Assembly (NCBI GenBank): GCA_045634865.1
Contig: JAZRBB010000002.1
Span: forward strand, 5,088 to 69,087
Length of the DNA: 64,000 nt
DNA from: Candidatus Enterousia sp.
GTDB lineage: Bacteria > Pseudomonadota > Alphaproteobacteria > Rs-D84
Direction of reading: 5' to 3'
Part shown: positions 29,705-44,328 of the stretch, one piece after another
How positions within the stretch are numbered: position 1 is the stretch's first letter
Layout of the letters: the number at the start of each line of letters is the position of its first letter
Notes under the pieces: generated by a model
Databases searched by the model: none
Told to the model about the DNA's origin: nothing
What the model saw: the letters and a program-made list of their open reading frames with translations, nothing else
Position numbers and translations under genes: made by a program

Positions 29705-29947
29705 ATGACGCATGAAGATGTGTGGAGCGCAATAGAAAAATTTGCTACTGAACATAATATGTCGTGTTCTGGTTTAGCAAAATGTAGTGGTCTGGACCCG
29801 ACAACATTCAACAAAAGTAAACGTTGGTCAAAAGAAGGGCAACCCAGATGGCCATCGACAAACAGTATTTCCAAGATTTTATCTTCTACGGGTGCATCTT
29901 TGGAAGATTTTACTAAATTCATCCCATCACAAAACGTTGATAGATAA
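29705..29947 (+). CDS. stand-alone HTH domain resembling the N-terminal domain of alphaproteobacterial CI/LexA-like (S24) phage repressors; no peptidase domain
   Basis: VWSAIEKFATEHNMSCSGLAKCSGLDPTTFNKSKR...RWPSTNSISKILSSTGASLEDF matches the conserved N-terminal module of that repressor family; 80 aa only. Confidence 0.55.
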   Translation: MTHEDVWSAIEKFATEHNMSCSGLAKCSGLDPTTFNKSKRWSKEGQPRWPSTNSISKILSSTGASLEDFTKFIPSQNVDR

Positions 29948-30067
29948 AAATATGCCTGTATGTTTTTCAATGTGCAGGCATATAATTATGTTTTTCATCA
30001 TCCTCAATCAATTTTATATCATTAATAATATGTTGCACAAAGCCGTTTTATTGGATATCGTGTAAGT

Positions 30068-30487
30068 ATGATAGAGAACATAAAAGTTTATACATCTGAT
30101 AAATATTGGCGCCAAATTTTCACTGATTTGGGCATGGGTGTTGTGGCAACACCAAATCTGGCAGATGTTGTCTTTGACGATATCAATATCAAAACACCAA
30201 TTTCAATTATGGATTTGCAAGCGCTGATACTGAATCATTTTGATAATTCAGATATCATACATAAAATTTTTGGTAAAGATGTTGTGTTGTCCAATTTGCA
30301 ACGTAAATTGATAGTGTTCTTGTATAAAAACCCAGATATTACAATGCGTGAATTAAAGGTTGCTTTGGGTTTGTCGCCCGATATAACAACGCATGCGGTG
30401 GAAACTGCGGTCTATCAGTTGCGTAAAAAATACGGACATAACTTTATAATAAACGAAAATGGGAAATATAAAATTGGACGGTTATAA
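30068..30487 (+). CDS. winged-helix protein (OmpR/PhoB-type Trans_reg_C-like C-terminus)
   Basis: LQRKLIVFLYKNPDITMRELKVALGL....THAVETAVYQLRKKYGHNFIINENGKYKI resembles the Trans_reg_C effector domain; no receiver domain. Confidence 0.4.
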   Translation: MIENIKVYTSDKYWRQIFTDLGMGVVATPNLADVVFDDINIKTPISIMDLQALILNHFDNSDIIHKIFGKDVVLSNLQRKLIVFLYKNPDITMRELKVALGLSPDITTHAVETAVYQLRKKYGHNFIINENGKYKIGRL

Positions 30488-31139
30488 ACTGATGTCTTTC
30501 GGAAAAATATCCAGCACCCAAGATTTGGCGCTTGATTTGATTGTTCGGAATGAAGCATCTGATAAAACCGTTATCGTTGCAGAATCCCAAACTGCTGGGC
30601 GTGGTCGATACAAGCGTAAGTGGGTATCAAACACCGGTAATTTATATGCCAGTTTTATATATAAAATATCCGAACGTGATCCAAAGTTATCTTATGCGAT
30701 TGCCGTGGCTGTGGCTGAAACAATGATTCATTTTGGTATTAGCCCGCAAATTAAATGGCCAAACGATGTTTTAATAGATGGTAAAAAGATAAGCGGTATT
30801 TTGATTGAATATGCTGGCAACTTTGTAATTATTGGTATTGGAATAAATGTTGAAAGTTGTCCAACCAAAAATGAATATAAAACAACCAAAGTAAATGATT
30901 ATGTAAATGTATCTGTCCAAGATGTACTGAATATTTTGATAAAGAAAATAAATAAATGGCGCGATGCAGATTTTGCACTTGTTCGTGAACATTGGATGAA
31001 TATGGCGATGGCTATAAACAAAACGATAAAATATCAGGGCAAAGTCGCAGAATTAATAGGCTTGAACGAAAGTGGCGCATTGGTTTTGCGCTGTGGCGAG
31101 AAATATATTTTAACCTATGGCGATGAAATCTTTGTTTAA
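30459..31139 (+). CDS. birA: biotin--[acetyl-CoA-carboxylase] ligase (group I, no HTH)
   Basis: GRGRxGRxW-type motif QTAGRGRYKRKW; BPL catalytic domain. Confidence 0.85.
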   Translation: MGNIKLDGYKLMSFGKISSTQDLALDLIVRNEASDKTVIVAESQTAGRGRYKRKWVSNTGNLYASFIYKISERDPKLSYAIAVAVAETMIHFGISPQIKWPNDVLIDGKKISGILIEYAGNFVIIGIGINVESCPTKNEYKTTKVNDYVNVSVQDVLNILIKKINKWRDADFALVREHWMNMAMAINKTIKYQGKVAELIGLNESGALVLRCGEKYILTYGDEIFV

Positions 31140-31283
31140 TTGTCTTGACTTTTATGTCAATTTGTGATATTATATGAAACATCAAGAATAGAAATATTGT
31201 CCGCGTTGTGCGGATTTTTTTATTCTTTATTTGTGCCCATGCATTTTTATGCGTGGGCTTTTTTCAACTAAAACAGGTCAAAC

Positions 31284-31694
31284 ATGCAACTAACATTGAT
31301 TGAAAACCCAGATAATACAAAATCTGTATTATATAAATTGGCACGCATAGTTTATGCGGAAACATTGGCGTCATCTTTGCAAATCACAGAAGCAATGGCT
31401 TCAATGATTTATAATATTCATATTAAATATAATAAATCGTTTGAAGATATAGCAAACGATTCAGATTTATTTGAATCGCTGAACGAAACATCTGCGCGTC
31501 ATGAATATCTGAATGTTCCGGTGCCGGACAGAAAGTTTCAAATGTGTTTACGTGTCGTGCAAAAAATGATGCATGGTCATTTACGCGATTGTGTTTTTGG
31601 TGCAACAAATTTTCATCATTCAGATGTGATGCCACAATGGGCTGTTTCACGTGGTTATATTGCAGAGTTTGATGATGTTCTGTTTTATCTTTGA
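31284..31694 (+). CDS. SleB-like cell-wall hydrolase (phage/GTA-type endolysin)
   Basis: LARIVYAE...ATNFH motif of Hydrolase_2 family; first gene of the phage-like block. Confidence 0.65.
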   Translation: MQLTLIENPDNTKSVLYKLARIVYAETLASSLQITEAMASMIYNIHIKYNKSFEDIANDSDLFESLNETSARHEYLNVPVPDRKFQMCLRVVQKMMHGHLRDCVFGATNFHHSDVMPQWAVSRGYIAEFDDVLFYL

Positions 31695-31712
31695 TATAAA
31701 AAGGATTTCAAT

Positions 31713-31904
31713 ATGAATAAAATAATCAAAGGCGGATATTTAGCAGGACGTAAAACATACGTGATTTCTGCGGTTGGCATAATGTCTGCGATTGGCGCTT
31801 ATTTAATAGGCGAAGGCGATATATTTACAACATTGCAAACGATTTTCACGTTGGGCGGTATTTATTTTCTGAAACAAGAATCTTCAACACAAAGGAAAAA
31901 ATAA
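31713..31904 (+). CDS. small membrane protein (possible holin)
   Basis: 63 aa, two hydrophobic helices; adjacent to the endolysin-like gene. Confidence 0.35.
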   Translation: MNKIIKGGYLAGRKTYVISAVGIMSAIGAYLIGEGDIFTTLQTIFTLGGIYFLKQESSTQRKK

Positions 31905-32566
31905 TGGAACAGATACCAGAAAAATTTCTTGATGAAAACGGTGAATTAAATACATCTGCTTTGGTTAAATCATATTGTGAACTGGAAAAGAAGATGGGAA
32001 CAATGGTTTCTGTGCCAAATGAAAACAGTGATGATACAACAAAACAAAAATTTAATCATGCAATTGGTGTGCCTGATAATGCATCTGAATATCCAACCAA
32101 TTCATTACTTGATGACGAATCGGTTCGCGAAAAATTTCATGAAATTGGATTGACTTCTAAACAAGTTGAACAAATTTATAACATCGCTGAAGAATTTTTA
32201 CAACCAACAATAAATAATTTGTTTGCATTACAAACACAAACAAATGCAATAAATGAATTGAAAAATTTTTTTGGTGGAACAGAAAAAATGAACGAAGCAA
32301 TGAAAGCAATAAATGCATTCGGTGAAAAATTTTTGCCGACTGATGCGTTTGATGCATTGTGCTCTACACCCCAGGGAATCCAAGGGGTATACAAGATGAT
32401 GCAATCTTTAGAACCAGAAGTTTTGATGAATAAAAATGCAACAGAAAATCTTACTGATGATGATTTAAGAATGATGATGCGTGATCCAAAATATTGGCGT
32501 GATCATGATGAAGAGTATGTAAGAAAAATAGAAAATGGTTTCAAGAAATTATATTCACAAAAATGA
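31904..32566 (+). CDS. acidic alpha-helical protein, possible scaffolding protein (T7 gp9 position)
   Basis: Position immediately upstream of the capsid gene; acidic composition. Confidence 0.35.
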   Translation: MEQIPEKFLDENGELNTSALVKSYCELEKKMGTMVSVPNENSDDTTKQKFNHAIGVPDNASEYPTNSLLDDESVREKFHEIGLTSKQVEQIYNIAEEFLQPTINNLFALQTQTNAINELKNFFGGTEKMNEAMKAINAFGEKFLPTDAFDALCSTPQGIQGVYKMMQSLEPEVLMNKNATENLTDDDLRMMMRDPKYWRDHDEEYVRKIENGFKKLYSQK

Positions 32567-32659
32567 TTTTTATTCTTTACTATTTTATTTTATTCATATA
32601 AAATATAAATTAAGAACAAAATAATTTTGTTCTATCCAAAAACTTAAAAGGAGAGAATT

Positions 32660-32953
32660 ATGTTCTTTGGTTCTAAGAAAAAATGCACAGCTGCAAAACC
32701 AGCTGCAAAAAAAGTAGCAGTTAAAAAAGTTGCTGCTAAAAAACCAGCTGCAAAAAAAGTTGCTGCAAAGAAACCAGTTGCTAAGAAAGTAGCAGTTAAA
32801 AAACCTGTTGCAAAAAAAGTAGTTGCTAAAAAAGCACCTACAAAAAAAGTAGCAGTTAAAAAAGTTGCTGCTAAAAAACCAGCTGCAAAAAAAGTAGTTG
32901 CTAAAAAAGCACCTGCAAAAAAGGCTGTTAAAAAAGTTGCAAAGAAAAAATAA
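32660..32953 (+). CDS. histone H1-like lysine/alanine-rich repeat protein (tandem AAKKPAAKKV(A) units)
   Basis: 97 aa, about 14 tandem repeats of a 7-8 aa KK(P/V)AAKK unit; strong RBS aaaggagag; the 32644..32961 minus-strand ORF is its antisense mirror. Confidence 0.6.
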   Translation: MFFGSKKKCTAAKPAAKKVAVKKVAAKKPAAKKVAAKKPVAKKVAVKKPVAKKVVAKKAPTKKVAVKKVAAKKPAAKKVVAKKAPAKKAVKKVAKKK

Positions 32954-33190
32954 TAAATCAACGCATGTATGTGCGTAATGTTATTTTATCCCCGAAAATG
33001 TAGGTTTCGGGGATTTTTTTATGATGAATTATTCAGTTAGATTTCGTATCTAACTGAATTTTTTATTGGATAATCCGTTTGTGGACCCGTTTTATTTTGT
33101 TTGTGTGGCGCAATTTATTTGCATAACCATCAATCAAGATTTTATTGTCGCCCAATTGGGCAAACATAAACTTAAACAAAAGGATTTTAT

Positions 33191-34018
33191 ATGTCTATGT
33201 CTGTAGATCAAGTGTTTATAAAACAATTTGAAGCAGATGTTCATTTGGCTTATCAACAAATGGGCACAAAATTGCGTTCCACAATTCGCAGTAAAACTGG
33301 TGTTGTTGGAACATCAACAACTTTTCAGAAAGTTGGCAAAGGTATCGCCAGCACAAAATCGCGTCATGGTATTGTGCCAGTTATGAATCTAAATCACACA
33401 CCAGTAGAATGTACATTGCAAGATTACTATGCAGGTGATTGGATTGATGCATTGGATGAATTGAAAACAAACGTTGATGAACGTCGTGTTGTTGCGTCTG
33501 CTGGTGCATATGCTTTGGGTCGTAAAACAGATGAATTAATTATTGCGGCGATGAATACAGCAACTCAATACGTTGGTGATTATTCTACGGGCTTAACCAA
33601 AGCATTGATAATGTCAGCAATTGAAAAACTGAATACAAACGATGTTCCAGATGATGGTCGCAGATATGCAGTTGTTGGTGTTCATCAATGGAATGAATTG
33701 TTGGCTTTGGATGAATTTGTTTCTGCTGACTATGTTGGCGGTTCTACACCATTAATCGACGGCTGTGAATCCAGAAAATGGTTGGGTGTGAATTGGATTT
33801 TGTGCAACGCATTGCCTTTGGCAAGCGGTGATGATCGTGATTGCTTTATTTATCACGCTTCCAGCATTGGTCATGCATGTGGTCAAGAAGTTAAAACAGA
33901 TATTACATGGCATGGTGAACGTGCTGCACACTTTATCAGCAACAGCATGTCCCAGGGTGCTGTATTGATTGATGCAGAAGGAATTGTCCGTATTAAATGT
34001 GACGATGATGCTGCTTAA
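33191..34018 (+). CDS. T7-like (gp10-family) major capsid protein
   Basis: Collinear similarity to T7 gp10A blocks (VDERRVVASAGAYALGRKTDELIIAAM ~ YDVRSEYTSQLGESLAMAADGAVLAEI; C-terminal G.ESRKWLGVNWILCNALP ~ G.IRNVMGFEVVEVPHL). Confidence 0.65.
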   Translation: MSMSVDQVFIKQFEADVHLAYQQMGTKLRSTIRSKTGVVGTSTTFQKVGKGIASTKSRHGIVPVMNLNHTPVECTLQDYYAGDWIDALDELKTNVDERRVVASAGAYALGRKTDELIIAAMNTATQYVGDYSTGLTKALIMSAIEKLNTNDVPDDGRRYAVVGVHQWNELLALDEFVSADYVGGSTPLIDGCESRKWLGVNWILCNALPLASGDDRDCFIYHASSIGHACGQEVKTDITWHGERAAHFISNSMSQGAVLIDAEGIVRIKCDDDAA

Positions 34019-34041
34019 CATATAACCAAAAGGAAAATCAA

Positions 34042-34272
34042 ATGGCATTTCAAAACAAAAATTTATCTGTAATTGCGTATGCAAATGGTTTTACTCTGTG
34101 GCATTACAAAGCAAATGAAACATTGGCGACAATAACCGCATCGGGATACTTTTCCAGCGTGAACAGTTTGATGAATACTGGCGATATTATTTTAATCAAT
34201 GGTTCTAACGGAACAACAATGAAATCTATCGCTGTTTCAGATGGTGTTGTCACAGTTGCTTCGTTATCTTAA
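34042..34272 (+). CDS. small phage protein
   Basis: 76 aa, RBS; between the capsid and tail tube A genes. Confidence 0.3.
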   Translation: MAFQNKNLSVIAYANGFTLWHYKANETLATITASGYFSSVNSLMNTGDIILINGSNGTTMKSIAVSDGVVTVASLS

Positions 34273-34340: not shown

Positions 34341-34859
34341 ATGTTTACGAAAATAGATTTATGTTCTATGGCTTTGTTGAAATTAGGTGAAACACCAATT
34401 CAATCTTTGCGTGAAGAGTCTGTCAAAGCACAATTGGCCAGAACTTTGTTTGATTCCACAGTAGATACTTTGTTATCTATGTTTCCATGGCGATTTGCGA
34501 CTCAATCAATAGTGTTGAATAAAAATTCTGATGGCGATTTTATTATTCCATCTAATGTTTTAAGAATCATTAAATGTGATGGTAAAATTATTGGTAATAA
34601 AATCATAAATTCATCAGAAATAACAGAAATTATAGCGATTGTCCGCACAGAACCAGAATCTTTCCCTGGATATTTTGCAACTTTGGTCGCAACAAAATTA
34701 GCAGTAGAATTCAGCATTCCATTGATTGGTGATACAAATATATTCAATATGATGATGGCTTTGTATGAATCAGAATATCAATCTGCAAAATTCATAGACA
34801 GCACAACATCGAACCAAACAAATATTGATAACTTTTCTTTGATAAATTCCAGATTTTAA
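34341..34859 (+). CDS. T7 gp11-like tail tubular protein A
   Basis: N-terminus MALLKLGETPIQSLREESVKA ~ T7 gp11 [20 protein letters not shown]; size and gene order. Confidence 0.55.
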   Translation: MFTKIDLCSMALLKLGETPIQSLREESVKAQLARTLFDSTVDTLLSMFPWRFATQSIVLNKNSDGDFIIPSNVLRIIKCDGKIIGNKIINSSEITEIIAIVRTEPESFPGYFATLVATKLAVEFSIPLIGDTNIFNMMMALYESEYQSAKFIDSTTSNQTNIDNFSLINSRF

Positions 34860-34874
34860 TCAAAAGGATTTGAT

Positions 34875-36587
34875 ATGGGAAACTTTCTTAGTACACAAAA
34901 TATGTTTTCTTGTGGAGAAGTATCGCCAGAATTTTATGCAACACACAATATGCATGGACTGACAAAACTAGAAAATATGGATGTATTGCAATCTGGCGGA
35001 TTAAAACGTAGACCCGGACTGAAATCCGTAAAAACAATATCTGGCGAGTCAATTTTAATTCCGTTTATTGTTAACGATACGGAAAAATATCTGGTTTTGG
35101 TACGTGATTCAGCGATAGATATATACAGTAATGATGTAAAAATAAAATCTTTACCAGCCCCATGGGGAGTATCTGATTTCAAGAAGTTGCAATATGCACA
35201 GCGATTTAACAAATTATTTTTTGTGCACCCAAATTACAAGCCACGTGTGCTAACCAGAACAGACAACAATTTTAATATTGCTACATTTGTTTTCAAGGCC
35301 AATTCAGATGCCAGTGCCAATATGCCGTTTACACGCTTTGAAGACACAGAAGGTATGTCAATTACAATCAGTCATAGTGATATTGATAACAGTCATGCAG
35401 TATTTACTACAAGTGCAGATTTTTTTACAAATGCATCTGTGGGGCAAGTTTTATTGGTATTATCAAAACAATGGATTGTTCAGAGTGTTCAGAGTGCGCG
35501 TGTTGCAACGGTTTATACTAATGGTGGTTATACACTTCCGAATGCCCCGGTTTATGACTGGTACGAATGTGTTTTTTCTGATAAACGTGGTTGGCCATCT
35601 TGTGTATCATTTCATCAGAATCGACTGGTTTTTGCGGGGACTCCATCGGCTCCAAATGGAATATGGATGTCCAAGACTGGTGATTATTATAACTTTGATA
35701 CAGGAACTGGTTTAGATGACGATGCAATTTATACATCTTTGTTATCAGCGCAACATCATCAAATTTGCACAGTTGTAAGCAGTGATAAATTACAAATTTT
35801 GACATCACTAGGCGAATGGGCTATATCCAGTTCACCGTTAACCCCATCTTCTGTATCTATTAAACAACATACTTCTGTGGGGACTAATGCGGATATATAT
35901 TTGCCACCCCAACAAATAGAAGGAAGTACTGTGTTCGTTGCAAAGTCGGGTAAAGATATACGCGAACTAGATTTAGACGCATTGGGCGAAAACTATAATG
36001 CAACAGATTTATGTGCCTTGTCTAAACATTTGATGAATACACCTATCAGTATGGCATATAGCCAGCAAAAACATCGGTTATTCGTTGTTATGGATAGTGG
36101 TATTATGGCTGTATTAAATAAATATTCGGGAACAGATATTTCTGCATGGGGGACATACACCACAGACGGTAAATTCAAATATGTTTGTGTTTTTGATGAT
36201 GTTGTGTATGTGATAGTAAGCAGAAATGGTACTTATTCATTGGAAAAATTTGATGATACTTGCCTGTCAGATGCAGGGACATACGGTTTTTCGTATCGAA
36301 TATCTGCATTTCCAATGATAGTAAATGGGCATTGTCCAAAGAAAATTCGTATTCGGAAAGTGTCTTTGCGTGTAATGAATACAAAAACGTTATTTATAAA
36401 TGAACAACGTATTGAAATACCTAATCTTGTTTATACAGACGATAACCCTGGATACAGTGGAGATTTGTCTGTAAATATGTTGGGAACCCAAAACGAAACC
36501 ATGAAAGCATTGTGGTCTTTATCAAGCAGTGAACAATTACCAGCAACCATATTATCTATCAGTGTTGATGGCTGGTATTCAATATAA
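34875..36587 (+). CDS. T7 gp12-like tail tubular protein B (570 aa)
   Basis: Position after the gp11-like gene; large beta-rich protein; family assignment mostly by synteny. Confidence 0.45.
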   Translation: MGNFLSTQNMFSCGEVSPEFYATHNMHGLTKLENMDVLQSGGLKRRPGLKSVKTISGESILIPFIVNDTEKYLVLVRDSAIDIYSNDVKIKSLPAPWGVSDFKKLQYAQRFNKLFFVHPNYKPRVLTRTDNNFNIATFVFKANSDASANMPFTRFEDTEGMSITISHSDIDNSHAVFTTSADFFTNASVGQVLLVLSKQWIVQSVQSARVATVYTNGGYTLPNAPVYDWYECVFSDKRGWPSCVSFHQNRLVFAGTPSAPNGIWMSKTGDYYNFDTGTGLDDDAIYTSLLSAQHHQICTVVSSDKLQILTSLGEWAISSSPLTPSSVSIKQHTSVGTNADIYLPPQQIEGSTVFVAKSGKDIRELDLDALGENYNATDLCALSKHLMNTPISMAYSQQKHRLFVVMDSGIMAVLNKYSGTDISAWGTYTTDGKFKYVCVFDDVVYVIVSRNGTYSLEKFDDTCLSDAGTYGFSYRISAFPMIVNGHCPKKIRIRKVSLRVMNTKTLFINEQRIEIPNLVYTDDNPGYSGDLSVNMLGTQNETMKALWSLSSSEQLPATILSISVDGWYSI

Positions 36588-36617: not shown

Positions 36618-36965
36618 ATGGGACAGTTAGTGTCAGATGTGACAAAAGTGTTAGATTACAAAGAATCTAAGAAAAATGCAGAAAGCGAACGTCAAAAAAT
36701 TTTGGCAGCAATGGCAGAAGACGAAAAAGCAAAGAATAATCTAATAAAAAAAGTTTTAGCGCAGCAACGTGCTGTATATGGTGCGTCTGGTAATTCGGGT
36801 ACCAGTTTTTCTGAAAATGCAGTATTAAAACGTTTGCGTTCAGAAACAGCGGAATCTTATGATGAAAAATGTAAAAATAATTTGGATAAAATAAATAATC
36901 TGAAAGTCAAAAGACCAAATTTATTAAAAAGTTGGTTGGCAAAAATAGATAAAATAGCAGGATAG
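36618..36965 (+). CDS. small basic coiled-coil phage protein
   Basis: 115 aa; strong RBS aaaggag. Confidence 0.35.
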   Translation: MGQLVSDVTKVLDYKESKKNAESERQKILAAMAEDEKAKNNLIKKVLAQQRAVYGASGNSGTSFSENAVLKRLRSETAESYDEKCKNNLDKINNLKVKRPNLLKSWLAKIDKIAG

Positions 36966-37523: not shown

Positions 37524-38118
37524 TTTTCTGGATGCTTGGAATAATGTGTTGGGATTCCAGACACCAAAACACCATCGACAGATAATGGAATTTTTGACCG
37601 ATGTATTAAATAATGAACCACATCGTGGATTATTAAATGCTTTTCGGCATTCTGGGAAATCTACGGTTGTTGGGGTGTTTGCGGCATGTGTTTTATATCA
37701 CAGACCTGAAACCAGAATATTAATATTATCTGCAGAATCAAATTTAGCGTCGCGCATGGTTGCACATATTCGCAATATTTTGGAAAACCATCCTTGGTGC
37801 ACAGATATTTTACCAAAGGTAAAAAAAGAGTGGGGAACACATAAAATTACAATTAAACGTCCCATAGGAATTCGAGAACCGTCTGTTATATGCCAAGGAA
37901 TTTCCGGAAATATAACAGGTATGCGTTCTGATTTGATAATATGTGATGATGTAGAGGTGCCAAATACTTGTAATACCCGGCAGAAACGCGACAATTTGAG
38001 AGAAAGGCTACGTGAATTGGATTTTATTTTATCACCAAACGGAACAATGATTTACATAGGCACACCACATACCAAAGATACAATATACAAAACAGATCAA
38101 GATATATCAGATAATTGA
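37492..38118 (+). pseudogene. large terminase subunit, N-terminal ATPase part (gene interrupted after the ATPase domain)
   Basis: Walker A-like RHSGKST; ...LIICDDVEVPNTCNTRQKRD... IYIGTPH; frame terminates at 38118 where the insertion begins. Confidence 0.7.
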
Positions 38119-38745
38119 CATAAATGTACGTAATTTAGTCAGCAGTTCTTCACCTGCTTCACCGAACATGGGCAGGTATGTTTCGAATTCAAGCATATCT
38201 GCCTGAATTTGAGCGCGACTGCGGTCCGTCAAAGGTTCTGATGTTAGTCGTTTTGCGGTATCCCAAGTGCGATATGCCTTGTCAGTACGAGAAACCAAAT
38301 CCCATTTTGCCAGTAATTCATTATTATTTGCTAGCATTGGTTTAATACTATCAACCCAATCATGGCCGAACTTTTTTACAAAAGGTAATTGATTGATTTT
38401 GCTTAATCCTTCGGGGGTTGTTTCGAAATTATCCAAAGCAATTTGTAGTTGTTTGATTTCGTCTGGTGTCAAAGATGTTTCGGTTTCATGACCAAACATC
38501 ATGCCACCGTATGGTAATAAATCAACCTCTATAGAATCCATAGGTGTTTTGCCACTGCGCAGATTTTCAATATGTTTAACTAGTTTTGCACCGGTTGGCA
38601 GAGATGCCAAAGCGGTAATAACATTTTCATCATTGGATTCGCGCAAAAACACTTCGTTGACAGCCGCCCAACCGCCTTCTATGACATGTTCTTGGCGATA
38701 CAGATTCAGTAACCTTTGGGCTGTCACTAATGTGTGTTGTTGCAT
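38107..38745 (-). CDS. hypothetical protein (212 aa) within the terminase-interrupting segment
   Basis: Opposite strand to the phage structural genes; no family recognised. Confidence 0.4.
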   Translation of the reverse strand: MQQHTLVTAQRLLNLYRQEHVIEGGWAAVNEVFLRESNDENVITALASLPTGAKLVKHIENLRSGKTPMDSIEVDLLPYGGMMFGHETETSLTPDEIKQLQIALDNFETTPEGLSKINQLPFVKKFGHDWVDSIKPMLANNNELLAKWDLVSRTDKAYRTWDTAKRLTSEPLTDRSRAQIQADMLEFETYLPMFGEAGEELLTKLRTFMSII

Positions 38746-38773: not shown

Positions 38774-39781
38774 CTATTTCGTCAAAACCATTATAACCTT
38801 GTGCATGGTTTTGCCTGTCACTTTTTCATCTGGATTTGAAATATGGCCGTACAATTTGCCAGATGAATCTTTGCGGACAACTGCAATCTGGGCAGAAACA
38901 GTATCATTTTCAGTCAAAGAACTAAAATCAGCATCCACAATCACAGCCAAATCACCAACAGCAGGAGTAAGACTTGCATCTGCAAATACATAAGAATTTT
39001 CGGGTATAAAACCGCCCAGACGTTTAGAATTTGGTTCTATTGCGTAAACACAACAACAGCCCTCCAAAGAAACGGGGGCAACAATCATAGTTTCATCAGA
39101 TTTCTTGAATTTGATTGATTTTTCAGATGGTGTGCCGAACACAGGAACCAATTTTTTACGCGCATTATCATACAATTGTGCACCATATAAACCGCAGTTC
39201 ATATTCAAGCCAGATGCAGGATTGCAAGGTTCCAAAACCGCTTTGACACGTTCTTTAACTTTGTTCATTTGTTTATTTAATTCCCCAGAATTATACAATC
39301 TGGCAATTTCATCAAACAATTGAGATGCGGTATAACCAAAAACATTTGCCAAAGGCTCAATTTCATTTTCATAAACTTCACGTTGACCAACTTCAAGTTT
39401 ATGATAAACAGACAGAGTCATATTTGCTGCCTTCGCAGTTTCCGCAATGGTTTTATCTGCACGCTGACGGATTTTACGTAGACCGCTACCAAAAACTTTC
39501 AGACCGCTGTCTTCATTATCTGTTAAACGGCGTTTGATTTCATTTTGCCATTTATCTGCATACTTATCTGTTTCATGTATAAACAGGTCAGATAATTTGC
39601 AACCCAATATAGAGCACACATTTAACAATTGCTTTTGATTCAGGCGACGAACGCCTTTTTCAATTTTTGACACAGCAGACAAAGATAAATTTGCGCGTCT
39701 TGCTAATTCGGTCATACGCATCCCTTTGGATGCACGAATATTACGAATATTATTTGGAAAAATGATTTCTTCTTGGGCCAT
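38774..39781 (-). CDS. CI/LexA-like repressor: two tandem XRE-family HTH domains plus C-terminal S24-peptidase-like domain
   Basis: Start MAQEEIIF with perfect RBS aaggag; two HTH_3 units (RASKGMRMTELARRANLSLSAVSKIEKG and RQRADKTIAETAKAANMTLSVYHKLEVG); C-terminal beta-rich domain with LexA-like architecture. Confidence 0.6.
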   Translation of the reverse strand: MAQEEIIFPNNIRNIRASKGMRMTELARRANLSLSAVSKIEKGVRRLNQKQLLNVCSILGCKLSDLFIHETDKYADKWQNEIKRRLTDNEDSGLKVFGSGLRKIRQRADKTIAETAKAANMTLSVYHKLEVGQREVYENEIEPLANVFGYTASQLFDEIARLYNSGELNKQMNKVKERVKAVLEPCNPASGLNMNCGLYGAQLYDNARKKLVPVFGTPSEKSIKFKKSDETMIVAPVSLEGCCCVYAIEPNSKRLGGFIPENSYVFADASLTPAVGDLAVIVDADFSSLTENDTVSAQIAVVRKDSSGKLYGHISNPDEKVTGKTMHKVIMVLTK

Positions 39782-39849
39782 GATAAACTCCTTAAAGTAC
39801 TTTGACAAAATAATAGTCAATTTTTATAAAATTAGCAAGGAAAAATTTA

Positions 39850-41394
39850 TTAAATGAAATCATCTGGTGCATCAATAACGTCAGGAACCACAGAAGTATC
39901 AGCAACATTTTGTTGTTGATACTGAGTATCAAATTCATCTGTTGCAGGTTGTGGACCAAATTGGTTAAGATTGTCAAACAAATAGTATTCGCCAAAGAAA
40001 CTTAAATGCACTGTTTCAGGTTTTCCATGACGGTTTTTTGCGATAATTAAATCAGCCTTGTTTCTGGCATTGTCCAGACGATTCTGCCAATGCTGGGTCG
40101 CATTTTCAGATGCATTACCAGACAGTCGTTGTTCAGGTGAACGTCCGCTTAGATAATATTCTTCGCGGTATGTGAACATAACAATATCAGCATCTTGCTC
40201 AATAGAACCGGATTCACGCAAATCTGATAACACAGGGCGTTTATCATCGCGTTGTTCGACACTACGTGACAATTGTGATAGGGCGATTACGGGGACGTCC
40301 AGCTCTTTTGCTAAGATTTTCAATCCACGAGTAATTTCAGATAATTCTTGGACACGATTATCGCTGTGTTTGCCCCCAGGCGAAGTCATCAACTGCAAAT
40401 AATCGATAACGATTAAAGCAATGCCGCCAGATTGACGGGCAATTCTGCGTGCACGTGTTTTTATCATAGCCACAGACATATTTGCGGTGTCATCAATAAC
40501 CAATGGCAATTTCGATAATGCATTGGCATATTCAGACATTTTCATAATGTCTTCGTCAGTTAAATTACCATCGCGCATACGTGCCGCAGGAATTTTTGAT
40601 TGGGAAGATAATATACGTGCTGCTAATTGTTGATTTGACATTTCAAGACTGAAAAACACGACTGCGCCATGGTATTTATCATTTGCGCGCTTGTTAAATA
40701 TAGCATTTGCAGCATTGAATGCGATATTCATTGCAACAGTAGTTTTACCCATACCAGGACGACCAGCAATAATCAGCAAATCAGAATGATGCAGGCCACT
40801 GATAGATTTATCCAAATCATCAAGACCAGTGGTCAAACCAGACAATTTACCATCGGCTTTATAAGCAATTTCTGCTTCTTCCAAAGCACCTTTTAATGCG
40901 TCTGCCAATGAAACAATATTATGTTCAGACTTACCGGTTGAAGCCAAGTTAAACAATTTTTGTTCAGCAGATTCAATTTGTACGCTGACAGGATTATCCA
41001 AATCTTCGGTATATGCGTTGTCCATAACGCTTTGCCCCAGACCGATTAAATCGCGACGTCTGGCATTATCAAAAACGATTTGTGCATAATGGTCGACATT
41101 TACAACAGTTGAACCAGCAGATGCCAGTTTAGAAAGGTATTCTACACCGCCAACGTTTTCCAAAACACCTTGTTGTTCAAGATATGTTTTTGCGGTGATT
41201 ATATCAAACGGTATCCCCGCAGAAAATTGACGTAATGCCAGTTTATAAATTTCTTGGTGAGCGGGATGCGAAAAATGCTCTGGCAACAGAAAATCAGAGA
41301 TGTTTTCCAATGCACGATTGTTCATCAAGACCGCGGCCAGAACGGCTTGTTCGGCTTCTAGATTCACAGGTAAGGTTTTCGGAGTAAAGTCCAT
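39850..41394 (-). CDS. dnaB: replicative DNA helicase DnaB
   Basis: Start MDFTPKTLPVNLEAEQAVL (ORF-track 5' extension is spurious); Walker A GRPGMGKTT; Walker B LIVIDYLQLM; RecA-like and N-terminal DnaB domains. Confidence 0.85.
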   Translation of the reverse strand: MDFTPKTLPVNLEAEQAVLAAVLMNNRALENISDFLLPEHFSHPAHQEIYKLALRQFSAGIPFDIITAKTYLEQQGVLENVGGVEYLSKLASAGSTVVNVDHYAQIVFDNARRRDLIGLGQSVMDNAYTEDLDNPVSVQIESAEQKLFNLASTGKSEHNIVSLADALKGALEEAEIAYKADGKLSGLTTGLDDLDKSISGLHHSDLLIIAGRPGMGKTTVAMNIAFNAANAIFNKRANDKYHGAVVFFSLEMSNQQLAARILSSQSKIPAARMRDGNLTDEDIMKMSEYANALSKLPLVIDDTANMSVAMIKTRARRIARQSGGIALIVIDYLQLMTSPGGKHSDNRVQELSEITRGLKILAKELDVPVIALSQLSRSVEQRDDKRPVLSDLRESGSIEQDADIVMFTYREEYYLSGRSPEQRLSGNASENATQHWQNRLDNARNKADLIIAKNRHGKPETVHLSFFGEYYLFDNLNQFGPQPATDEFDTQYQQQNVADTSVVPDVIDAPDDFI

Positions 41395-42241
41395 GTCTTT
41401 TAGATTAAACGAAAATTTTAATAATTCAATACCTTTTTTGGTGGGGTATAAACATTTGAAAATACCAATAGTCGACAGTGCCGGAAATCCAGCATGGCCA
41501 GAGTTATTTCCAATTGAAAAAATCAACGATTTACAACGAATTGTGGGCCCAAGACATTTTTCTGCCCAAATGATGTTGGAATATATATCAGAAGAAAAAG
41601 CATATCTGGACCCTGGGGCATTAAAGTTTTACGTCGACGATTTTGATTACCGTAATTCACATATCGGGGAACATTTAATCACAGGTGTTTCGTTGTATTG
41701 GGATCCATCATCTGGACATCACGTATCAGATGGTAGTGTTTGTGCCTTGGTTTATCGTGATGATAAAAATAAAACCGCTTTTATTCACGACATTATGTAC
41801 ATGAATGTCGAGGACGAAGATTTGCATCCGCTGGCGACACAATGCGAACAGGTGCTGGCTTTTATGCAAAGACACAAAATAAGCAGAATAGGGGTTGAAA
41901 TCAATGGTATTGGTAATGCATTACCCGAAATATTGCGACGCATATCGGATGCAGAGCAAATGTCTATCAATATTATTCAGATAGCAAATCACACCAAAAA
42001 AGAAACCAGAATTTTGAATGCTATTGAACCGATGTTGACTACGGGTCGCTTGTTTGCCAGAAACACAATTCAGCAAACAATGTTGCTGTCTGAAATGTTG
42101 GCGTGGTCGCCAATTGGTTCCAAAGAACATGATGATGGTTTGGATGCTGTTGCAGGTGCACTTGCAATGACACCGATTCCAACCAGAACTTTGATAAATC
42201 ACTCTGGTTTAATCAAGGCAAATACTGAATTCAACATATAA
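41393..42241 (+). pseudogene. large terminase subunit, C-terminal hinge plus nuclease part (TIGR01630-like); no start codon of its own
   Basis: NPAWPELFPIEKINDLQRIVGPRHFSAQMMLEYIS hinge motif; acidic nuclease residues (VDDFDYR, HDDGLDAVAGA); frame is open from 41300 but overlaps the dnaB start on the opposite strand. Confidence 0.65.
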
Positions 42242-42263
42242 CAAAAACAAAAGGATAAAATAA

Positions 42264-43487
42264 ATGCAAAAAAATCTTATGCAATTATATAAACGTGCGC
42301 TAGATGAACGCAGTGTATGGCTTAATCGCTGGAAAACGGCTATGCGATATACAATTCCAACAGACGATTCAGATGTCGCAACACTATTTGATGCTACTGC
42401 ATCTGATGCCGTTGATAATTTGGCAGCATCTATGTATTCTTTGCTGACACCACCAGAATCTTTGTGGATAAATTTAGTTCGTGAAAGCGAATTGTCACCA
42501 AATGCAGAATTTGCAACAGATATGTTGCGTGCGCATTTGAACGATTCTAATTTTTATACAACAATACATCAATGTTATACAGATTTGGTTGTTTTGGGTA
42601 CAGCGTGTTTATTTATGGCAGAAAATCCAATCGGTGCAGATTCTGCATTTTCATTTACTGCAATTCCAATGTCTGACATAGCGATATTACCAGGCGCAGT
42701 TTTTCATGCGACTTCTATGCCAGCCTGTGATTTGATGGACAAATATCCAGATTTTGTAATGCCGTCGCATATGCGCGATACCGTTAAAAATAATCCGCAA
42801 ACCCAAATCAGATTGGTTCAATCTTTGATAGGTAAAGATTTTACAGCATGGGTTGATGTCGGTGGGGATATTGAAAATAATATTGTTTCGCGTGGCACAT
42901 TTGAAACAAATCCATATATTATATTCCGTTGGTCTGTGGTTAGTGGTGAATTATATGGACGGGGGCCGGTATTGCGTGCTTTGCCAGATATAAAAACTGT
43001 AAATAAAGTTGTAGAATTAGTCTTGAAAAATGCAACTATCGCAGTCAGTGGTATATGGCAGGCTGATGATGATGGAGTTATCAATTTATCAAATATAAAT
43101 TTAACACCTGGGGCAATTATACCAAAAGCTGTGGGCAGTTCGGGTTTAACCCCGTTATCCAGTGGTGCAGATTTTGATATATCGCAAATTGTACTACGTG
43201 ATTTACGCGACAGAATCAGACATACTTTATTGGCAGACAGACTTGGGTTATTATCAGATAAAGAAATGACCGCCACAGAAATATTAGCGCGTAATTCGGA
43301 TATGGTGCGCATATTGGGCGCAACCTATGGCCGTTTGTTGCACGAATTTATCAGGCCACTTTGTGAACGTGGTTTGCAGATATTATCACGTCGTGGATTG
43401 ATAGATAAAATATCTTTGCACAGCGATGCAGAATTGAAATATATTGCGCCAATCGCACAAATGGCACGTGAAGAAATGGCTATATAG
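42264..43487 (+). CDS. T7 gp8-like portal (head-to-tail connector) protein, 407 aa
   Basis: N-terminus LYKRALDERSVWLNRWKTAMRYTIPTDDSD.....DAVDNLAASMYSLL parallels T7 gp8 VYERLKNDRAPYETRAQNCAQYTIPSLFPKDSD...GARGLNNLASKLMLAL. Confidence 0.65.
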   Translation: MQKNLMQLYKRALDERSVWLNRWKTAMRYTIPTDDSDVATLFDATASDAVDNLAASMYSLLTPPESLWINLVRESELSPNAEFATDMLRAHLNDSNFYTTIHQCYTDLVVLGTACLFMAENPIGADSAFSFTAIPMSDIAILPGAVFHATSMPACDLMDKYPDFVMPSHMRDTVKNNPQTQIRLVQSLIGKDFTAWVDVGGDIENNIVSRGTFETNPYIIFRWSVVSGELYGRGPVLRALPDIKTVNKVVELVLKNATIAVSGIWQADDDGVINLSNINLTPGAIIPKAVGSSGLTPLSSGADFDISQIVLRDLRDRIRHTLLADRLGLLSDKEMTATEILARNSDMVRILGATYGRLLHEFIRPLCERGLQILSRRGLIDKISLHSDAELKYIAPIAQMAREEMAI

Positions 43488-43496
43488 GATTGAAAA

Positions 43497-43697
43497 ATGC
43501 AAGATATAGAAAAACAATATGCACGAACATTTGCTACACCATCTGGAAAACAAGTGCTGATTCATTTGCGTTCCATAACATTGGAACGCATTGTCGGACC
43601 AAATGCTTCAAATGAAGATTTGCGCTGGTGGGCTGCACAAAATGCTTTGGTACATCAAATTGAAAATTTAATAAACAAAGGGAAAAATCCAACATGA
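43497..43697 (+). CDS. small phage protein
   Basis: 66 aa, overlaps next gene start. Confidence 0.3.
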   Translation: MQDIEKQYARTFATPSGKQVLIHLRSITLERIVGPNASNEDLRWWAAQNALVHQIENLINKGKNPT

Positions 43698-43954
43698 CAA
43701 AGCAAAATACAATGAATGACATATTAGAAATTCTGCGCAACAGTTGGTTTTTAATTGCTTTTGTCGCAGGCATTATTTATTGGGTTGCGCGTCAGGATTC
43801 GTCATTGTCTGAATTGGAACGCCAAGAACAACGGATAACATCTTTGGAAAACAGAACCACAATTCTTGAATCTGGTATCGGTCAATTGCAATTGAAAATA
43901 GACGGAATCAAAGAAGATGTGACAATGATTAAAAGCGCAGTTATTAAAAACTAG
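43694..43954 (+). CDS. small membrane-anchored coiled-coil protein
   Basis: TM helix WFLIAFVAGIIYWV followed by heptad region. Confidence 0.35.
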   Translation: MTKQNTMNDILEILRNSWFLIAFVAGIIYWVARQDSSLSELERQEQRITSLENRTTILESGIGQLQLKIDGIKEDVTMIKSAVIKN

Positions 43955-44328
43955 ATTGCATTTTTTGCCCAATATATTTTATGACCACAGACAACGATTA
44001 CATCAAATCTGGCATCGCCAGTCCAATGCGTGTTCATCAGATATGTTTCTGCTGCGCGTCGTAATCGTGCAGATTGATTTGGTGTAATCGCATTCCACGC
44101 CGCATCAATACTTTGACGACATTTTACTTCTATGAAAACAATAGTATTTTTGTGGCGTGCGATTATATCTATTTCTGCACGATTGGTATTTTTACCAGTT
44201 ATATATCTGCTTTTTAATATTTTATAACCATGAAAGCGTAAATACCATCTGGCCAGAAATTCAGAATATAAACCAATTGTGTAAGAAGTTTTTTTAGAAT
44301 GCATACGGTTTAGCCTGGAAATTTTCAC
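43951..44328 (-). CDS. yraN: YraN-family (UPF0102) endonuclease-like protein
   Basis: IDIIARHKNTIVFIEVKCR motif of UPF0102. Confidence 0.65.
   Translation of the reverse strand: MKISRLNRMHSKKTSYTIGLYSEFLARWYLRFHGYKILKSRYITGKNTNRAEIDIIARHKNTIVFIEVKCRQSIDAAWNAITPNQSARLRRAAETYLMNTHWTGDARFDVIVVCGHKIYWAKNAI

What the first reader, a model, noticed from the sequence alone, without database searches (positions are those of the whole stretch)
29705..44328. T7-like structural gene cassette (scaffold, gp10 capsid, gp11, gp12, fibre stub, TerL, gp8 portal) with no RNAP, DNAP or gp14-16 core
Several proteins in this block align block-by-block with coliphage T7 virion proteins: major capsid gp10 (33191..34018), tail tube A gp11 (34341..34859), fibre N-terminus gp17 (36975..37523) and portal gp8 (42264..43487). 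A gp12-sized protein and a terminase fill the expected positions. No RNA polymerase, DNA polymerase, primase, integrase or the large internal core/ejection proteins gp14-16 are present. The fibre is only a 182-aa attachment domain, and the portal follows the terminase, which is a circularly permuted order. A lysis pair (SleB-like hydrolase plus small TM protein) leads the block. It lies between birA and yraN in a core-gene neighbourhood. Either this is a decaying podovirus prophage in a lineage where phages are barely known, or it is a domesticated particle-producing module (GTA-like, packaging host DNA) that lost autonomous replication.
Basis: partly seen in the sequence, partly recalled or inferred. 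Interest (0 to 1): 0.75.

Follow-up and report, generated by a model that had tools for sequence, protein, structure and literature searches.

The report
Domesticated T7-like particle gene cassette
A tiny-genome gut bacterium (Candidatus Enterousia, order Rs-D84) keeps a stripped-down, T7-type phage head, short tail and DNA-packaging gene set at one fixed chromosomal place in every related species examined, so it is a domesticated, probably gene-transfer-agent-like device and not a dying prophage.

Summary
Window 31284-43954 encodes an endolysin, holin, T7-type scaffold, capsid, gp11-like adaptor, gp12-like nozzle, fibre N-terminal stub, large terminase and gp8-type portal. It has no polymerase, integrase or large internal (gp15/16-like) proteins.

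- The terminase is split into an ATPase half (37492-38118) and a nuclease half (41393-42241). Three opposite-strand genes, including the host replicative helicase dnaB, lie between them.
- A lysine-rich H1-like gene sits between scaffold and capsid.
- The fibre stub is absent from about half of the species.
- A conserved promoter followed by two terminators precedes the block.

The window comes from Candidatus Enterousia (order Rs-D84, genomes under 1 Mb). All 80 species representatives fetched share the same gene order, with intact ORFs. dN/dS is 0.05-0.26, and the capsid is the best-conserved protein in the locus. Terminase catalytic motifs are invariant. Decay is excluded.

Best reading: a vertically inherited, antitermination-controlled, podovirus-like particle and DNA-packaging module, GTA-like. 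Particle production and DNA transfer are untested. Related compact cassettes without ejection proteins occur in other bacteria. I found no published description. Novelty: new variant of a known kind.

The parts
29705..29947 (+). o80: 80-aa Cro/CI-type HTH protein, a remnant of the element's repressor. A strong hairpin follows at 29950-29983.
   Evidence: PF13443 weak hit. The Enterousia profile hits the N-terminus of the 213-aa HTH+S24 repressor upstream of related cassettes at E about 1e-30. Mean identity 0.83, dN/dS 0.07. Hairpin.
30068..31139 (+). o139 (wHTH protein) and birA: host genes interleaved between the repressor remnant and the late operon. Probably not part of the device.
   Evidence: TIGR00121 147.6 bits. 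L022 and L043 have other genes upstream of lys.
31144..31283 (+). Late-operon control region. It holds a -35 TTGACT / extended -10 TGATATTAT promoter (31144-31173), a conserved leader, two tandem intrinsic terminators (31199-31222 and 31235-31264), then the RBS.
   Evidence: Promoter pattern in 64 of 64 loci. Two hairpin plus T-run sites in 58 of 64 loci and at least one in all, with 35 and 48 different stem sequences. The promoter occurs once in the window.
31284..31694 (+). Endolysin (SleB-like cell-wall hydrolase).
   Evidence: PF07486 E 2.6e-4, below cut-off; phrog_938 1.8e-7. Intact in 67 of 67 loci.
31713..31904 (+). o63: holin-like small membrane protein.
   Evidence: Hydrophobic segments and a charged C-terminus. 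Conserved in 67 of 67 loci. Function inferred.
31904..32566 (+). T7-type scaffolding (capsid assembly) protein.
   Evidence: PF05396 41.6 bits against a 27.1 cut-off; phrog_3742.
32660..32953 (+). Lysine/alanine-rich histone H1/Hc2-like protein. Probably DNA-binding; whether it enters the capsid is unknown.
   Evidence: PF07382 48.3 bits against a 40 cut-off. Present in all Enterousia loci inspected, 52-145 aa, conserved N-terminus MFFGSKKKC. Absent from L130 and L167.
32954..33190 (+). Structured leader of the capsid gene. It has two terminator-like hairpins (32988-33014 and 33031-33059) and further conserved hairpins.
   Evidence: No Rfam match.
33191..34018 (+). Major capsid protein (HK97 fold family PF19821).
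   Evidence: E 6e-73. PDB 9eg4_A 1e-24. Mean identity 0.86, dN/dS 0.067.
34042..34272 (+). o76: small beta-rich protein that always follows the capsid gene. Possibly a decoration or minor head protein. A hairpin follows at 34297-34319.
   Evidence: phrog_18004 1.2e-13. Also follows the capsid gene in L130, L131, L167 and L169.
34341..34859 (+). gp11-like adaptor (tail tubular protein A type).
   Evidence: phrog_394 4.4e-29. PF17212 below cut-off. PDB 8ck1_E 2.7e-6.
34875..36587 (+). gp12-like nozzle (tail tubular protein B type), shortened to 570 aa.
   Evidence: phrog_376 5.5e-96. PDB 8ck1_A 'Tail Nozzle' 9.4e-28.
36618..36965 (+). o115: charged coiled-coil protein at the position of the first internal virion protein (gp13/14 slot).
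   Evidence: No family hit. Profile hits the ORF after gp12 in L128, L130, L131 and L167. dN/dS 0.22.
36975..37523 (+). Fibre stub: gp17-type N-terminal attachment domain only. The gene is a presence/absence polymorphism.
   Evidence: PF03906. Present in 38 of 75 loci and cleanly absent from the rest, including the near-identical L001.
37492..38118 (+). TerN: ATPase half of the large terminase.
   Evidence: phrog_38 positions 283-459, 1.3e-45. T7 gp19 1e-26. Walker A, Walker B and GTPH motifs invariant in 75 species.
38107..38745 (-). o212: lineage-restricted all-helical protein of unknown function, inside the terminase gap.
38774..39781 (-). Double XRE-HTH regulator with a C-terminal beta domain; a candidate controller.
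   Evidence: PF01381 twice. 335 aa in 1020 homologues. dN/dS 0.07. Fold of the C-domain is inconclusive.
39850..41394 (-). dnaB, the host replicative helicase, embedded between the terminase halves.
   Evidence: NF006606 607 bits against a 540 cut-off. TIGR00665 505 against 385. The phage_DnaB cut-off is not reached.
41393..42241 (+). TerC: lid plus RNase-H-like nuclease half of the large terminase. Its ATG overlaps the dnaB ATG by 2 nt.
   Evidence: phrog_38 positions 468-703; PF22530. The CCATGTC junction is conserved and downstream indels are multiples of 3. Nuclease motifs invariant.
42264..43487 (+). Portal (T7 gp8 family).
   Evidence: PF12236 271.8 bits. T7 gp8 2e-11. dN/dS 0.063.
43497..43697 (+). 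Bbp19-like small protein that follows the portal in all relatives.
   Evidence: PF25181 27 bits against a 25 cut-off..
43694..43954 (+). o86: N-terminal TM segment plus coiled coil, spanin- or holin-like. Last gene of the block.
   Evidence: phrog_736. An o86-like ORF precedes lys in L130.

Best explanation
This is a domesticated, vertically inherited T7-type podovirus morphogenesis and DNA-packaging module of the reduced-genome gut Alphaproteobacteria Candidatus Enterousia (order Rs-D84). It most likely works like a gene transfer agent.

Shown:
- A fixed chromosomal locus with conserved gene order.
- Strong purifying selection on every structural, packaging and lysis gene.
- Invariant terminase catalytic motifs, although the terminase is split in two.
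- A conserved strong promoter followed by tandem terminators in front of the block.

Inferred mechanism:
1. The late promoter fires but transcription stops at the two leader terminators. An unidentified antiterminating or regulatory input allows read-through. Candidates are the double-HTH protein, o80, o139 and o212.
2. Scaffold, capsid and portal build procapsids.
3. TerN and TerC associate non-covalently and fill heads with host DNA. This should be non-specific, because no small terminase is recognisable.
4. The adaptor and nozzle close the portal.
5. Endolysin, holin and o86 lyse the producer cell.

The two large internal ejection proteins and a receptor-binding fibre are missing from the locus. 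Delivery therefore must differ from T7 injection. It may use the recipient's own uptake functions or parts encoded elsewhere, or the particles may serve another extracellular role.
For: Phage origin and type: Pfam, PHROG and PDB matches for scaffold, capsid, adaptor, nozzle, fibre N-domain, TerL and portal.

Host and spread: the capsid search gives 3937 homologues. The top 120 are all at least 74% identical (nearly all 80% or more), from rumen and gut 'Alphaproteobacteria bacterium' / Enterousia MAGs on contigs up to 969 kb. 320 GTDB species representatives match.

Fixation: identical gene order, including the TerN-[o212, hth, dnaB]-TerC arrangement, in 80 of 80 loci. ORFs are intact with conserved lengths.

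Selection: dN/dS is 0.067 for the capsid, 0.063 for the portal, 0.055 for TerN, 0.2 for TerC and 0.08 for gp12. The neighbours score 0.045 (dnaB), 0.08 (lpxI) and 0.16 (birA). The nearly synonymous-only WIN-L001 pair confirms this.

Codivergence with host genes: Pearson r 0.7-0.95, with the capsid evolving at about half the host-protein rate.

Active sites: all invariant. TerN plus TerC are collinear with unsplit TerLs.

No prophage functions: flanks are housekeeping genes.

Regulation: the promoter plus two covarying terminators is conserved in 58-64 of 64 loci. Terminator-like sites are enriched, 26 found against 10 +/- 3.3 expected.

Precedents: RcGTA-like head clusters kept under purifying selection in reduced endosymbionts (PMC9254644). 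A podovirus-like GTA with a second operon elsewhere (PMC12946183). GTA control by antitermination in Caulobacter (PMC11150451, title and abstract).
Against: - No direct evidence of particles, packaged DNA or transfer.
- No recognisable small terminase.
- The gp15/16-like ejection proteins carried by the nearest real phages (713-783 aa and 1049-1247 aa) are absent.
- The fibre is a stub, and is missing altogether in half of the species. A T7-style adsorption and injection cycle is therefore not possible with the genes seen.
- A split large terminase has no characterised functional precedent that I could find.
- Only 64 kb of a roughly 0.9-Mb genome was inspected, so accessory loci cannot be excluded or confirmed.
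- The antiterminator is not identified; the o212 and hth folds were uninformative.
- dS is near saturation for most species pairs, so many of the dN/dS values are approximate.
Confidence: 0.65

Rival explanations
1. The same domesticated particle exists, but its selected role is not gene transfer between bacteria. The particles (DNA-filled or not) act in the symbiont's interaction with its partner or host cell, or as released DNA or protein cargo. Producer lysis may also serve a population-level function.
For: The ejectosome and receptor-binding fibre are missing, and the fibre stub is dispensable. The hosts are predicted obligate symbionts or parasites with genomes under 1 Mb (PMC12306168). 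The same question was raised for tail-less RcGTA-like clusters of endosymbionts (PMC9254644). A lineage-specific H1-like basic protein has been added to the head module.
Against: A complete packaging motor with invariant nuclease and ATPase sites, and an adaptor and nozzle, are maintained. That argues for DNA being packaged and gated. No cargo or effector gene is evident in the block.
Confidence: 0.22
2. A defective element or satellite that still depends on a helper T7-like phage to supply the ejection proteins and fibres, and that spreads horizontally.
For: It encodes head, portal, terminase and proximal tail but lacks exactly the distal and internal parts. In this it resembles capsid-forming satellites, which steal the remainder from a helper. 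Related compact cassettes occur in unrelated GC contexts. IMG/VR lists them as viral contigs.
Against: There is no integrase, replication module or att-like boundary. The chromosomal position is the same in 80 species and the element codiverges with the host. Host genes (birA, dnaB) are interleaved. The element carries its own lysis genes. No complete related phage was seen in the same lineage.
Confidence: 0.06
3. A decaying podovirus prophage remnant with no function.
For: Replication, integration, ejection and most fibre functions are lost. The gene order is rearranged. The terminase gene is interrupted.
Against: All ORFs are intact in about 70-80 species. dN/dS is 0.05-0.26. The capsid is more conserved than DnaB (0.86 against 0.75 mean identity). 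Catalytic motifs are invariant. The regulatory leader is conserved with compensatory changes. The genome is streamlined, with coding density of about 0.9 and no pseudogene accumulation (PMC12306168).
Confidence: 0.02

Closest known systems
FpGTA of Faecalibacterium prausnitzii (PMC12946183)
   Same: A compact (about 10 kb) chromosomal operon with TerL, portal, scaffold, capsid and short-tail-type proteins. It is near-ubiquitous in its genus and lives in the gut. Further parts (fibre, RBP, lysis) lie in a second operon far away, which shows that missing parts can be encoded elsewhere.
   Different: The host is a Firmicute. Particles, 8.5-kb DNA and proteomics were shown experimentally there; nothing is shown here. 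FpGTA has a candidate TerS and an unsplit TerL. No sequence relationship was tested.
RcGTA-like clusters, including head-only clusters in Rickettsiales and Holosporaceae endosymbionts (PMC9254644)
   Same: A domesticated phage structural cluster in Alphaproteobacteria with reduced genomes, kept under purifying selection while distal tail functions are lost. Ecological role unknown.
   Different: The ancestry differs. RcGTA is siphovirus-like, with an HK97 capsid, a prohead protease and a long tail. This cassette is T7-like, with a scaffold, gp8-type portal, adaptor and nozzle, and T7-type TerL. None of the RcGTA families appeared in the Pfam scans.
Temperate T7-like podophages without RNA polymerase (Pelagibacter phage EXVC031P, Vibrio phage K411 group)
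   Same: These are the closest real phages. Capsid identity is 44% and 33% respectively. The gene string matches: portal, small protein, scaffold, capsid, small protein, adaptor, nozzle, small internal protein.
   Different: The phages are 32-34 kb and carry an integrase, replication genes, two large internal proteins (713-783 and 1049-1247 aa), a full fibre and an unsplit TerL.
Compact T7-order cassettes in other bacterial chromosomes (L167, L139, L084, L169)
   Same: The same protein families are present, with capsid identity of 52-63%. They also lack the large internal proteins, integrase and replication genes. L167 is flanked by purH and by glnD/murJ-type host genes, with a CI/LexA-like repressor whose HTH is homologous to o80.
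   Different: They keep the ancestral order (portal first, TerL last) and an unsplit TerL. Some carry a full 783-aa fibre. No dnaB insert and no H1-like gene. Whether they are domesticated is not known.
BaGTA (Bartogtaviriformidae)
   Same: An alphaproteobacterial GTA of about 14 kb with terminase, portal and capsid, associated with replication functions (PMC2697382, PMC9662315).
   Different: Sulfitobacter phage pCB2047-C, whose TerL nests inside the BaGTA TerL clade, shows no similarity to any cassette protein. BaGTA sequences themselves could not be fetched.

Membership tests
T7-like podovirus structural module | gp8-type portal (Head-tail_con) | tested here: met
   PF12236 271.8 bits against a 27 cut-off. 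T7 gp8 E 2e-11 over the full length. T7 portal structures at about 1e-7.
T7-like podovirus structural module | gp9-type scaffolding protein | tested here: met
   PF05396 41.6 bits against a 27.1 cut-off. No direct hit to T7 gp9.
T7-like podovirus structural module | Capsid protein homologous to T7 gp10 | tested here: inconclusive
   Strong PF19821 / phrog_3437 match, and phrog_267 at 1e-19. No detectable direct similarity to T7 gp10A by BLASTP or profile.
T7-like podovirus structural module | gp11 adaptor plus gp12 nozzle | tested here: met
   phrog_394 4e-29 and phrog_376 5.5e-96. PDB 8ck1 connector 2.7e-6 and nozzle 9.4e-28. PF17212 scores 19.2, below its 22.3 cut-off. T7 gp12 is only marginal at 0.03.
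T7-like podovirus structural module | gp17-type fibre | tested here: inconclusive
   The N-terminal attachment domain is present (PF03906, 29.6 against 25.2). The distal receptor-binding part is missing, and the gene is absent in 37 of 75 loci.
T7-like podovirus structural module | Internal core / ejection proteins gp14-gp16 | tested here: not met
   Only a 115-aa ORF lies between the nozzle and the fibre. There is no large unexplained ORF in the 64-kb window. The nearest phages do carry them. The rest of the genome was not searchable.
T7-like podovirus structural module | T7-type large terminase | tested here: met
   TerN against gp19: 1e-26, 33% identity. TerC by profile: 6e-7. PF22530 36.5 against 27. 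The protein is encoded as two separate ORFs.
Gene transfer agent (functional definition) | Phage-derived structural cluster fixed in the host chromosome, without its own replication or integration genes | tested here: met
Gene transfer agent (functional definition) | Vertical inheritance and purifying selection with the host | tested here: met
Gene transfer agent (functional definition) | Particles are produced and contain random host DNA fragments | not testable with these tools
   Needs VLP sequencing, proteomics or EM.
Gene transfer agent (functional definition) | Packaged DNA is delivered to recipient cells | not testable with these tools
   Needs culture or population-genomic recombination analysis. 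Absence of the ejectosome and fibre argues for a non-T7 route.
RcGTA-like (Rhodogtaviriformidae) | HK97-type capsid with prohead protease, plus siphovirus tail genes homologous to RcGTA g1-g15 | tested here: not met
   None of these families appeared in the Pfam or PHROG scans of any ORF in the block.
BaGTA-like (Bartogtaviriformidae) | TerL and capsid in the BaGTA clade | tested here: not met
   Proxy test only. Phage pCB2047-C, whose TerL nests within BaGTA TerLs (PMC9662315), shares no detectable similarity with the cassette's TerN, TerC, capsid or portal at E <= 10.
Intact or inducible prophage | Integrase, replication and lysogeny modules, att boundaries, continuation beyond the block | tested here: not met
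   Flanks are birA/lpxI/rumA and yraN/BamA/RseP. Boundaries were defined by L022, L043 and L076.
Phage satellite (capsid-forming PICI-like) | Integrase, replication initiator, variable insertion sites | tested here: not met
   None present. The position is the same in 80 species.

The most novel reading that the evidence does not exclude
The cassette is the Enterousia representative of a previously unrecognised, widely distributed family of ejectosome-less T7-type viriforms, independent of RcGTA, BaGTA and FpGTA. In Rs-D84 this family has become wired into host replication control. The two-piece terminase is functional. The late transcript has to read antisense through the dnaB operon to reach TerC and the portal, so that committing to particle production simultaneously shuts down the replicative helicase. 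Particles would carry host DNA condensed by a dedicated H1-like protein and deliver it without any injection machinery.
Probability: 0.12. Interest if true: 0.92.

Novelty: new variant of a known kind. Interest (0 to 1): 0.78.

Why it matters
If particles are made, this would be an independent domestication of a T7-type podovirus into a GTA-like element. It appears universal in an abundant but uncultured order of gut and rumen Alphaproteobacteria whose genomes are below 1 Mb, where every retained kilobase is informative.

It bears on why obligate symbionts keep phage heads, a question raised in PMC9254644. It offers a natural experiment in splitting a viral packaging ATPase/nuclease into two chains. 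It also points to a broader family of compact T7-like cassettes that lack ejection proteins.

Practically, virus-mining pipelines already list these chromosomal segments, dnaB included, as viral contigs. That inflates virus catalogues and host-virus links.

Tried and rejected
- Exact look-ups of the window portal and the MuF-like protein: not on record.
- Intein or intron explanation of the split terminase: rejected. TerN ends 8-10 residues after the GTPH motif and TerC starts just before the next conserved block. That leaves no room for intein halves, and the insert is three opposite-strand genes.
- BaGTA homology: rejected by proxy.
- hth C-terminal domain as an S24/LexA-like domain: the model is poor (pLDDT 59). 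Foldseek gives HTH hits and only weak full-length matches to lambda CI. Left inconclusive.
- Rfam on the block and on L130: nothing.
Replaced by a per-sequence terminator scan.
- A sigma-54 reading of the 'TGGCGC...TTGCAT' motif upstream of the capsid gene: rejected. The spacing is wrong, and the variable part covaries as a hairpin.
- A dif site near the GC-skew switch: none found.
- Literature searches for this cassette, for Enterousia phages and for split terminases: no description found.
- A second copy of the late promoter elsewhere in the window, to find accessory loci: none.

Full report
WHAT IS THERE. The plus strand of window 31284-43954 carries, in this order:
- a SleB-like hydrolase
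- a 63-aa two-TM protein
- a T7-type scaffold (PF05396)
- a lysine-rich H1/Hc2-like protein
- a capsid protein (PF19821, E 6e-73)
- a 76-aa protein (phrog_18004)
- a gp11-like adaptor (phrog_394)
- a 570-aa gp12-like nozzle (phrog_376; PDB 8ck1 'Tail Nozzle' 9e-28)
- a 115-aa charged protein
- a 182-aa protein that is only the gp17-type N-terminal fibre domain (PF03906)
- the large terminase
- a gp8-type portal (PF12236, 272 bits)
- a Bbp19-like protein
- an 86-aa TM plus coiled-coil protein

Against coliphage T7 itself, only the portal (2e-11) and the terminase (TerN-gp19 1e-26, 33% identity) are directly significant. The other proteins are tied to the T7-type module through family profiles and intermediate phages. 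The closest real phages by capsid are Pelagibacter phage EXVC031P (44%) and a group of 32-kb Vibrio podophages (about 32%).

The terminase is not one gene. TerN (37492-38118, 208 aa) matches phrog_38 positions 283-459. TerC (41393-42241, 282 aa) matches positions 468-703. Three genes lie between them on the minus strand:
- o212, a protein of unknown function.
- A 335-aa regulator with two XRE HTH domains.
- dnaB. It passes the curated cut-offs for the bacterial replicative helicase (NF006606, 607 against 540) and fails the phage-DnaB model.

Concatenated, TerN and TerC are collinear with unsplit 480-510-aa relatives. The break lies in a variable linker about 10 residues after the GTPH motif. 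The TerC start codon overlaps the dnaB start codon by 2 nt (CCATGTC). This junction is conserved in every species, and indels downstream of it are multiples of three.

WHOSE GENOME. The capsid has 3937 homologues at E<=1e-20. The best 120 are 74-100% identical (all but one at least 80%) and come from rumen and gut 'Alphaproteobacteria bacterium' MAGs, on contigs up to 969 kb. A scan of one genome per GTDB species found relatives in 320 species. The 80 fetched are Candidatus Enterousia and unnamed relatives, including a 958-kb circular chromosome. Enterousia belongs to order Rs-D84. Its genomes are mostly under 1 Mb, coding density is about 0.9, and an obligate symbiont or parasite lifestyle is predicted. 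The paper describing them does not mention phages (PMC12306168).

DOMESTICATION, NOT DECAY.
- All 80 loci have the same order: o80, o139, birA, lys, o63, scaffold, capsid, o76, gp11, gp12, o115, (fibre), TerN, [o212, hth, dnaB], TerC, portal, Bbp19, o86.
- L022 and L043 differ upstream of lys, and L076 differs downstream of o86. These delimit the conserved block.
- ORFs are intact and of constant length. TerN is 196-209 aa and TerC 279-287 aa.
- Nei-Gojobori dN/dS is 0.067 (capsid), 0.063 (portal), 0.055 (TerN), 0.08 (gp12), 0.19 (gp11), 0.2 (TerC), 0.26 (scaffold) and 0.25 (lysin).
- The neighbouring host genes give 0.045 (dnaB), 0.08 (lpxI) and 0.16 (birA).
- Mean protein identity is highest for the capsid (0.86), compared with 0.75 for DnaB.
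- dS is near saturation for most pairs. The close WIN-L001 pair (dS 0.1-0.4) gives the same picture.
- Cassette and host protein distances are correlated (Pearson 0.7-0.95), and the capsid changes at about half the host rate.
- Walker A, Walker B, the GTPH motif and the three nuclease acidic motifs are invariant in 73-75 species.
- The window flanks are housekeeping genes.

WHAT HAS BEEN LOST OR CHANGED. In EXVC031P and Vibrio phage K411 the nozzle gene is followed by a small protein, then two large proteins (713-783 aa and 1049-1247 aa), then a fibre. These occupy the position of T7 gp14-16. The cassette keeps only the small protein (o115) and a fibre stub. The stub gene is present in 38 of 75 loci. 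It is excised cleanly in the others, including L001, which is nearly identical to the window. No small terminase is recognisable. The H1-like gene, with a variable AKK-repeat number, is present in all Enterousia loci but not in more distant relatives.

REGULATION.
- The birA-lys spacer contains TTGACT, a 17-nt spacer with an upstream TG, then TATTAT. This pattern is present in 64 of 64 loci.
- A conserved leader follows, then two hairpin plus T-run terminators, and only then the RBS and the lys ATG.
- Two terminators are detected in 58 of 64 loci and at least one in all 64. They have 35 and 48 different stem sequences, so the structure is conserved and the sequence is not.
- More terminator-like hairpins lie between the H1-like gene and the capsid gene, and after o76.
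- No room for another promoter exists between the second terminator and lys. Expression therefore seems to need terminator read-through, as in lambdoid late operons and as reported for the Caulobacter GTA. This is an inference.
- o80 is homologous (E about 1e-30) to the HTH of a 213-aa HTH+S24 repressor that sits divergently upstream of related cassettes. It is a repressor remnant.
- TerC, portal, Bbp19 and o86 can only be transcribed from inside dnaB, or by read-through antisense to the dnaB operon. Which of these occurs is unknown.

RELATIVES AND HISTORY.
- A phmmer scan of 1.8 billion representatives with TerN shows a gap from 79% to about 50% identity. Below that gap, hits are mostly unsplit TerLs.
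- L167 (an 86-kb metagenome contig) has repressor, 132-aa ORF, portal, Bbp19, scaffold, capsid, 89-aa ORF, adaptor, nozzle, 145-aa ORF and TerL, sitting between purH and LacI...murJ/glnD.
- L139 (GC 0.72) adds a 783-aa fibre. L084 ends with TerL next to topA. L169 comes from human faeces.
- All of these lack the large internal proteins, so a family of compact T7-order cassettes exists beyond Rs-D84.
- L130 (capsid 71%, GC 0.38) has an o86-like ORF, lys, o63, scaffold ... fibre, then TerN, a 214-nt spacer (with a perfect promoter and a terminator), TerC and a host ABC-F gene.
- L128 has TerN, dnaB, an 838-aa ORF and TerC. L082/L083 have adjacent TerN and TerC ORFs.
- The ancestral order was therefore portal-Bbp19-(o86)-(lysis)-scaffold...TerL, and the Enterousia order is a circular permutation of it.
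- The terminase linker has been broken in several lineages. The L130 TerN is closer to unsplit TerLs (58-61%) than to the Enterousia TerN (48%), so the split may be recurrent.

COMPARISON WITH KNOWN SYSTEMS.
- It is not RcGTA-like; none of those families are present.
- It is not BaGTA-like by a proxy test against Sulfitobacter phage pCB2047-C.
- The best functional analogue is FpGTA, reported in 2026 as the first podovirus-like GTA. There a second operon 125 kb away supplies the fibre, RBP and lysis genes.
- The best evolutionary analogue is the retention of RcGTA head genes in reduced endosymbionts.
- Seven literature searches found no description of this cassette.

VERDICT. I put about 0.9 on a domesticated, selectively maintained module. 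I put about 0.65 on it making DNA-filled podovirus-like particles released by lysis, and about 0.35 on it mediating gene transfer between cells. The missing ejectosome, the dispensable fibre stub and the split terminase with the embedded dnaB operon are the unexplained features. They are also what make the element worth following.

Noticed in passing
window 12180-12785 (+): A 201-aa protein with a phage Mu-F / SPP1 gp7-like head-morphogenesis domain (PF04233, 34.1 bits against a 29.6 cut-off; phrog_873 1.4e-24). It lies 21 kb upstream of the cassette, among lipoprotein-like ORFs. It could be an accessory head-internal or DNA-pilot protein, or a toxin-type MuF remnant.
   Followed up: partly
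window 32954-33190: A roughly 240-nt conserved, highly structured leader upstream of the capsid gene. It has two terminator hairpins plus three further hairpins with conserved flanks and covarying stems. No Rfam family matches.
   Followed up: partly
L130 8788-9001: In a sister lineage, the gap between the two terminase halves holds only a perfect TTGACA-17-TATAAT promoter, about 100 nt, and a hairpin plus T-run. It looks like a small RNA gene or another promoter-terminator control module.
   Followed up: no
L082/L083 10001-11480: A 1.47-Mb circular contig (GC 0.49) carries a split terminase as two adjacent, overlapping ORFs (210 + 271/284 aa). It sits among alaS, tsaD, hemCD, ffh and miaB, with no capsid gene within 10 kb.
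   Followed up: no
L167 1821-11545; L139; L084 439-6770; L169: Compact cassettes of about 9-13 kb in T7 order occur in other bacterial chromosomes (GC 0.43-0.74). They run (repressor)-portal-Bbp19-scaffold-capsid-adaptor-nozzle-small ORF-(fibre)-TerL. None has large internal proteins, an integrase or replication genes. One relative (L166) pairs the same hydrolase with a GTA_holin_3TM protein.
   Followed up: partly
L086-L127 (IMG/VR UViGs): The chromosomal Enterousia cassette, with the host dnaB inside it, is catalogued many times in IMG/VR as roughly 10-kb viral contigs.
   Followed up: partly
window about 43000-45000: GC skew changes from positive to negative at the right end of the cassette, together with a switch of gene orientation. 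This could mark a replication terminus or simply reflect strand bias of genes. No dif-like site was found.
   Followed up: partly
window 30068-31139: o139 ends in a winged-helix domain and overlaps the start of a group-I-length birA. Together they resemble a class-II BirA whose DNA-binding domain has become a separate ORF. That would be a second split gene in this locus.
   Followed up: no
window 26503-27498 (+): A 331-aa Fic/Doc-domain protein (phrog_577, Doc-like toxin, 2.5e-15) lies just upstream of lpxI. It was not found by tblastn in any of the 80 related loci fetched.
   Followed up: no
L066 and L068: One MAG (RGIG4147) carries the cassette on two different contigs, with capsids 81% and 82% identical to the window. 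This is probably two strains or species binned together.
   Followed up: no
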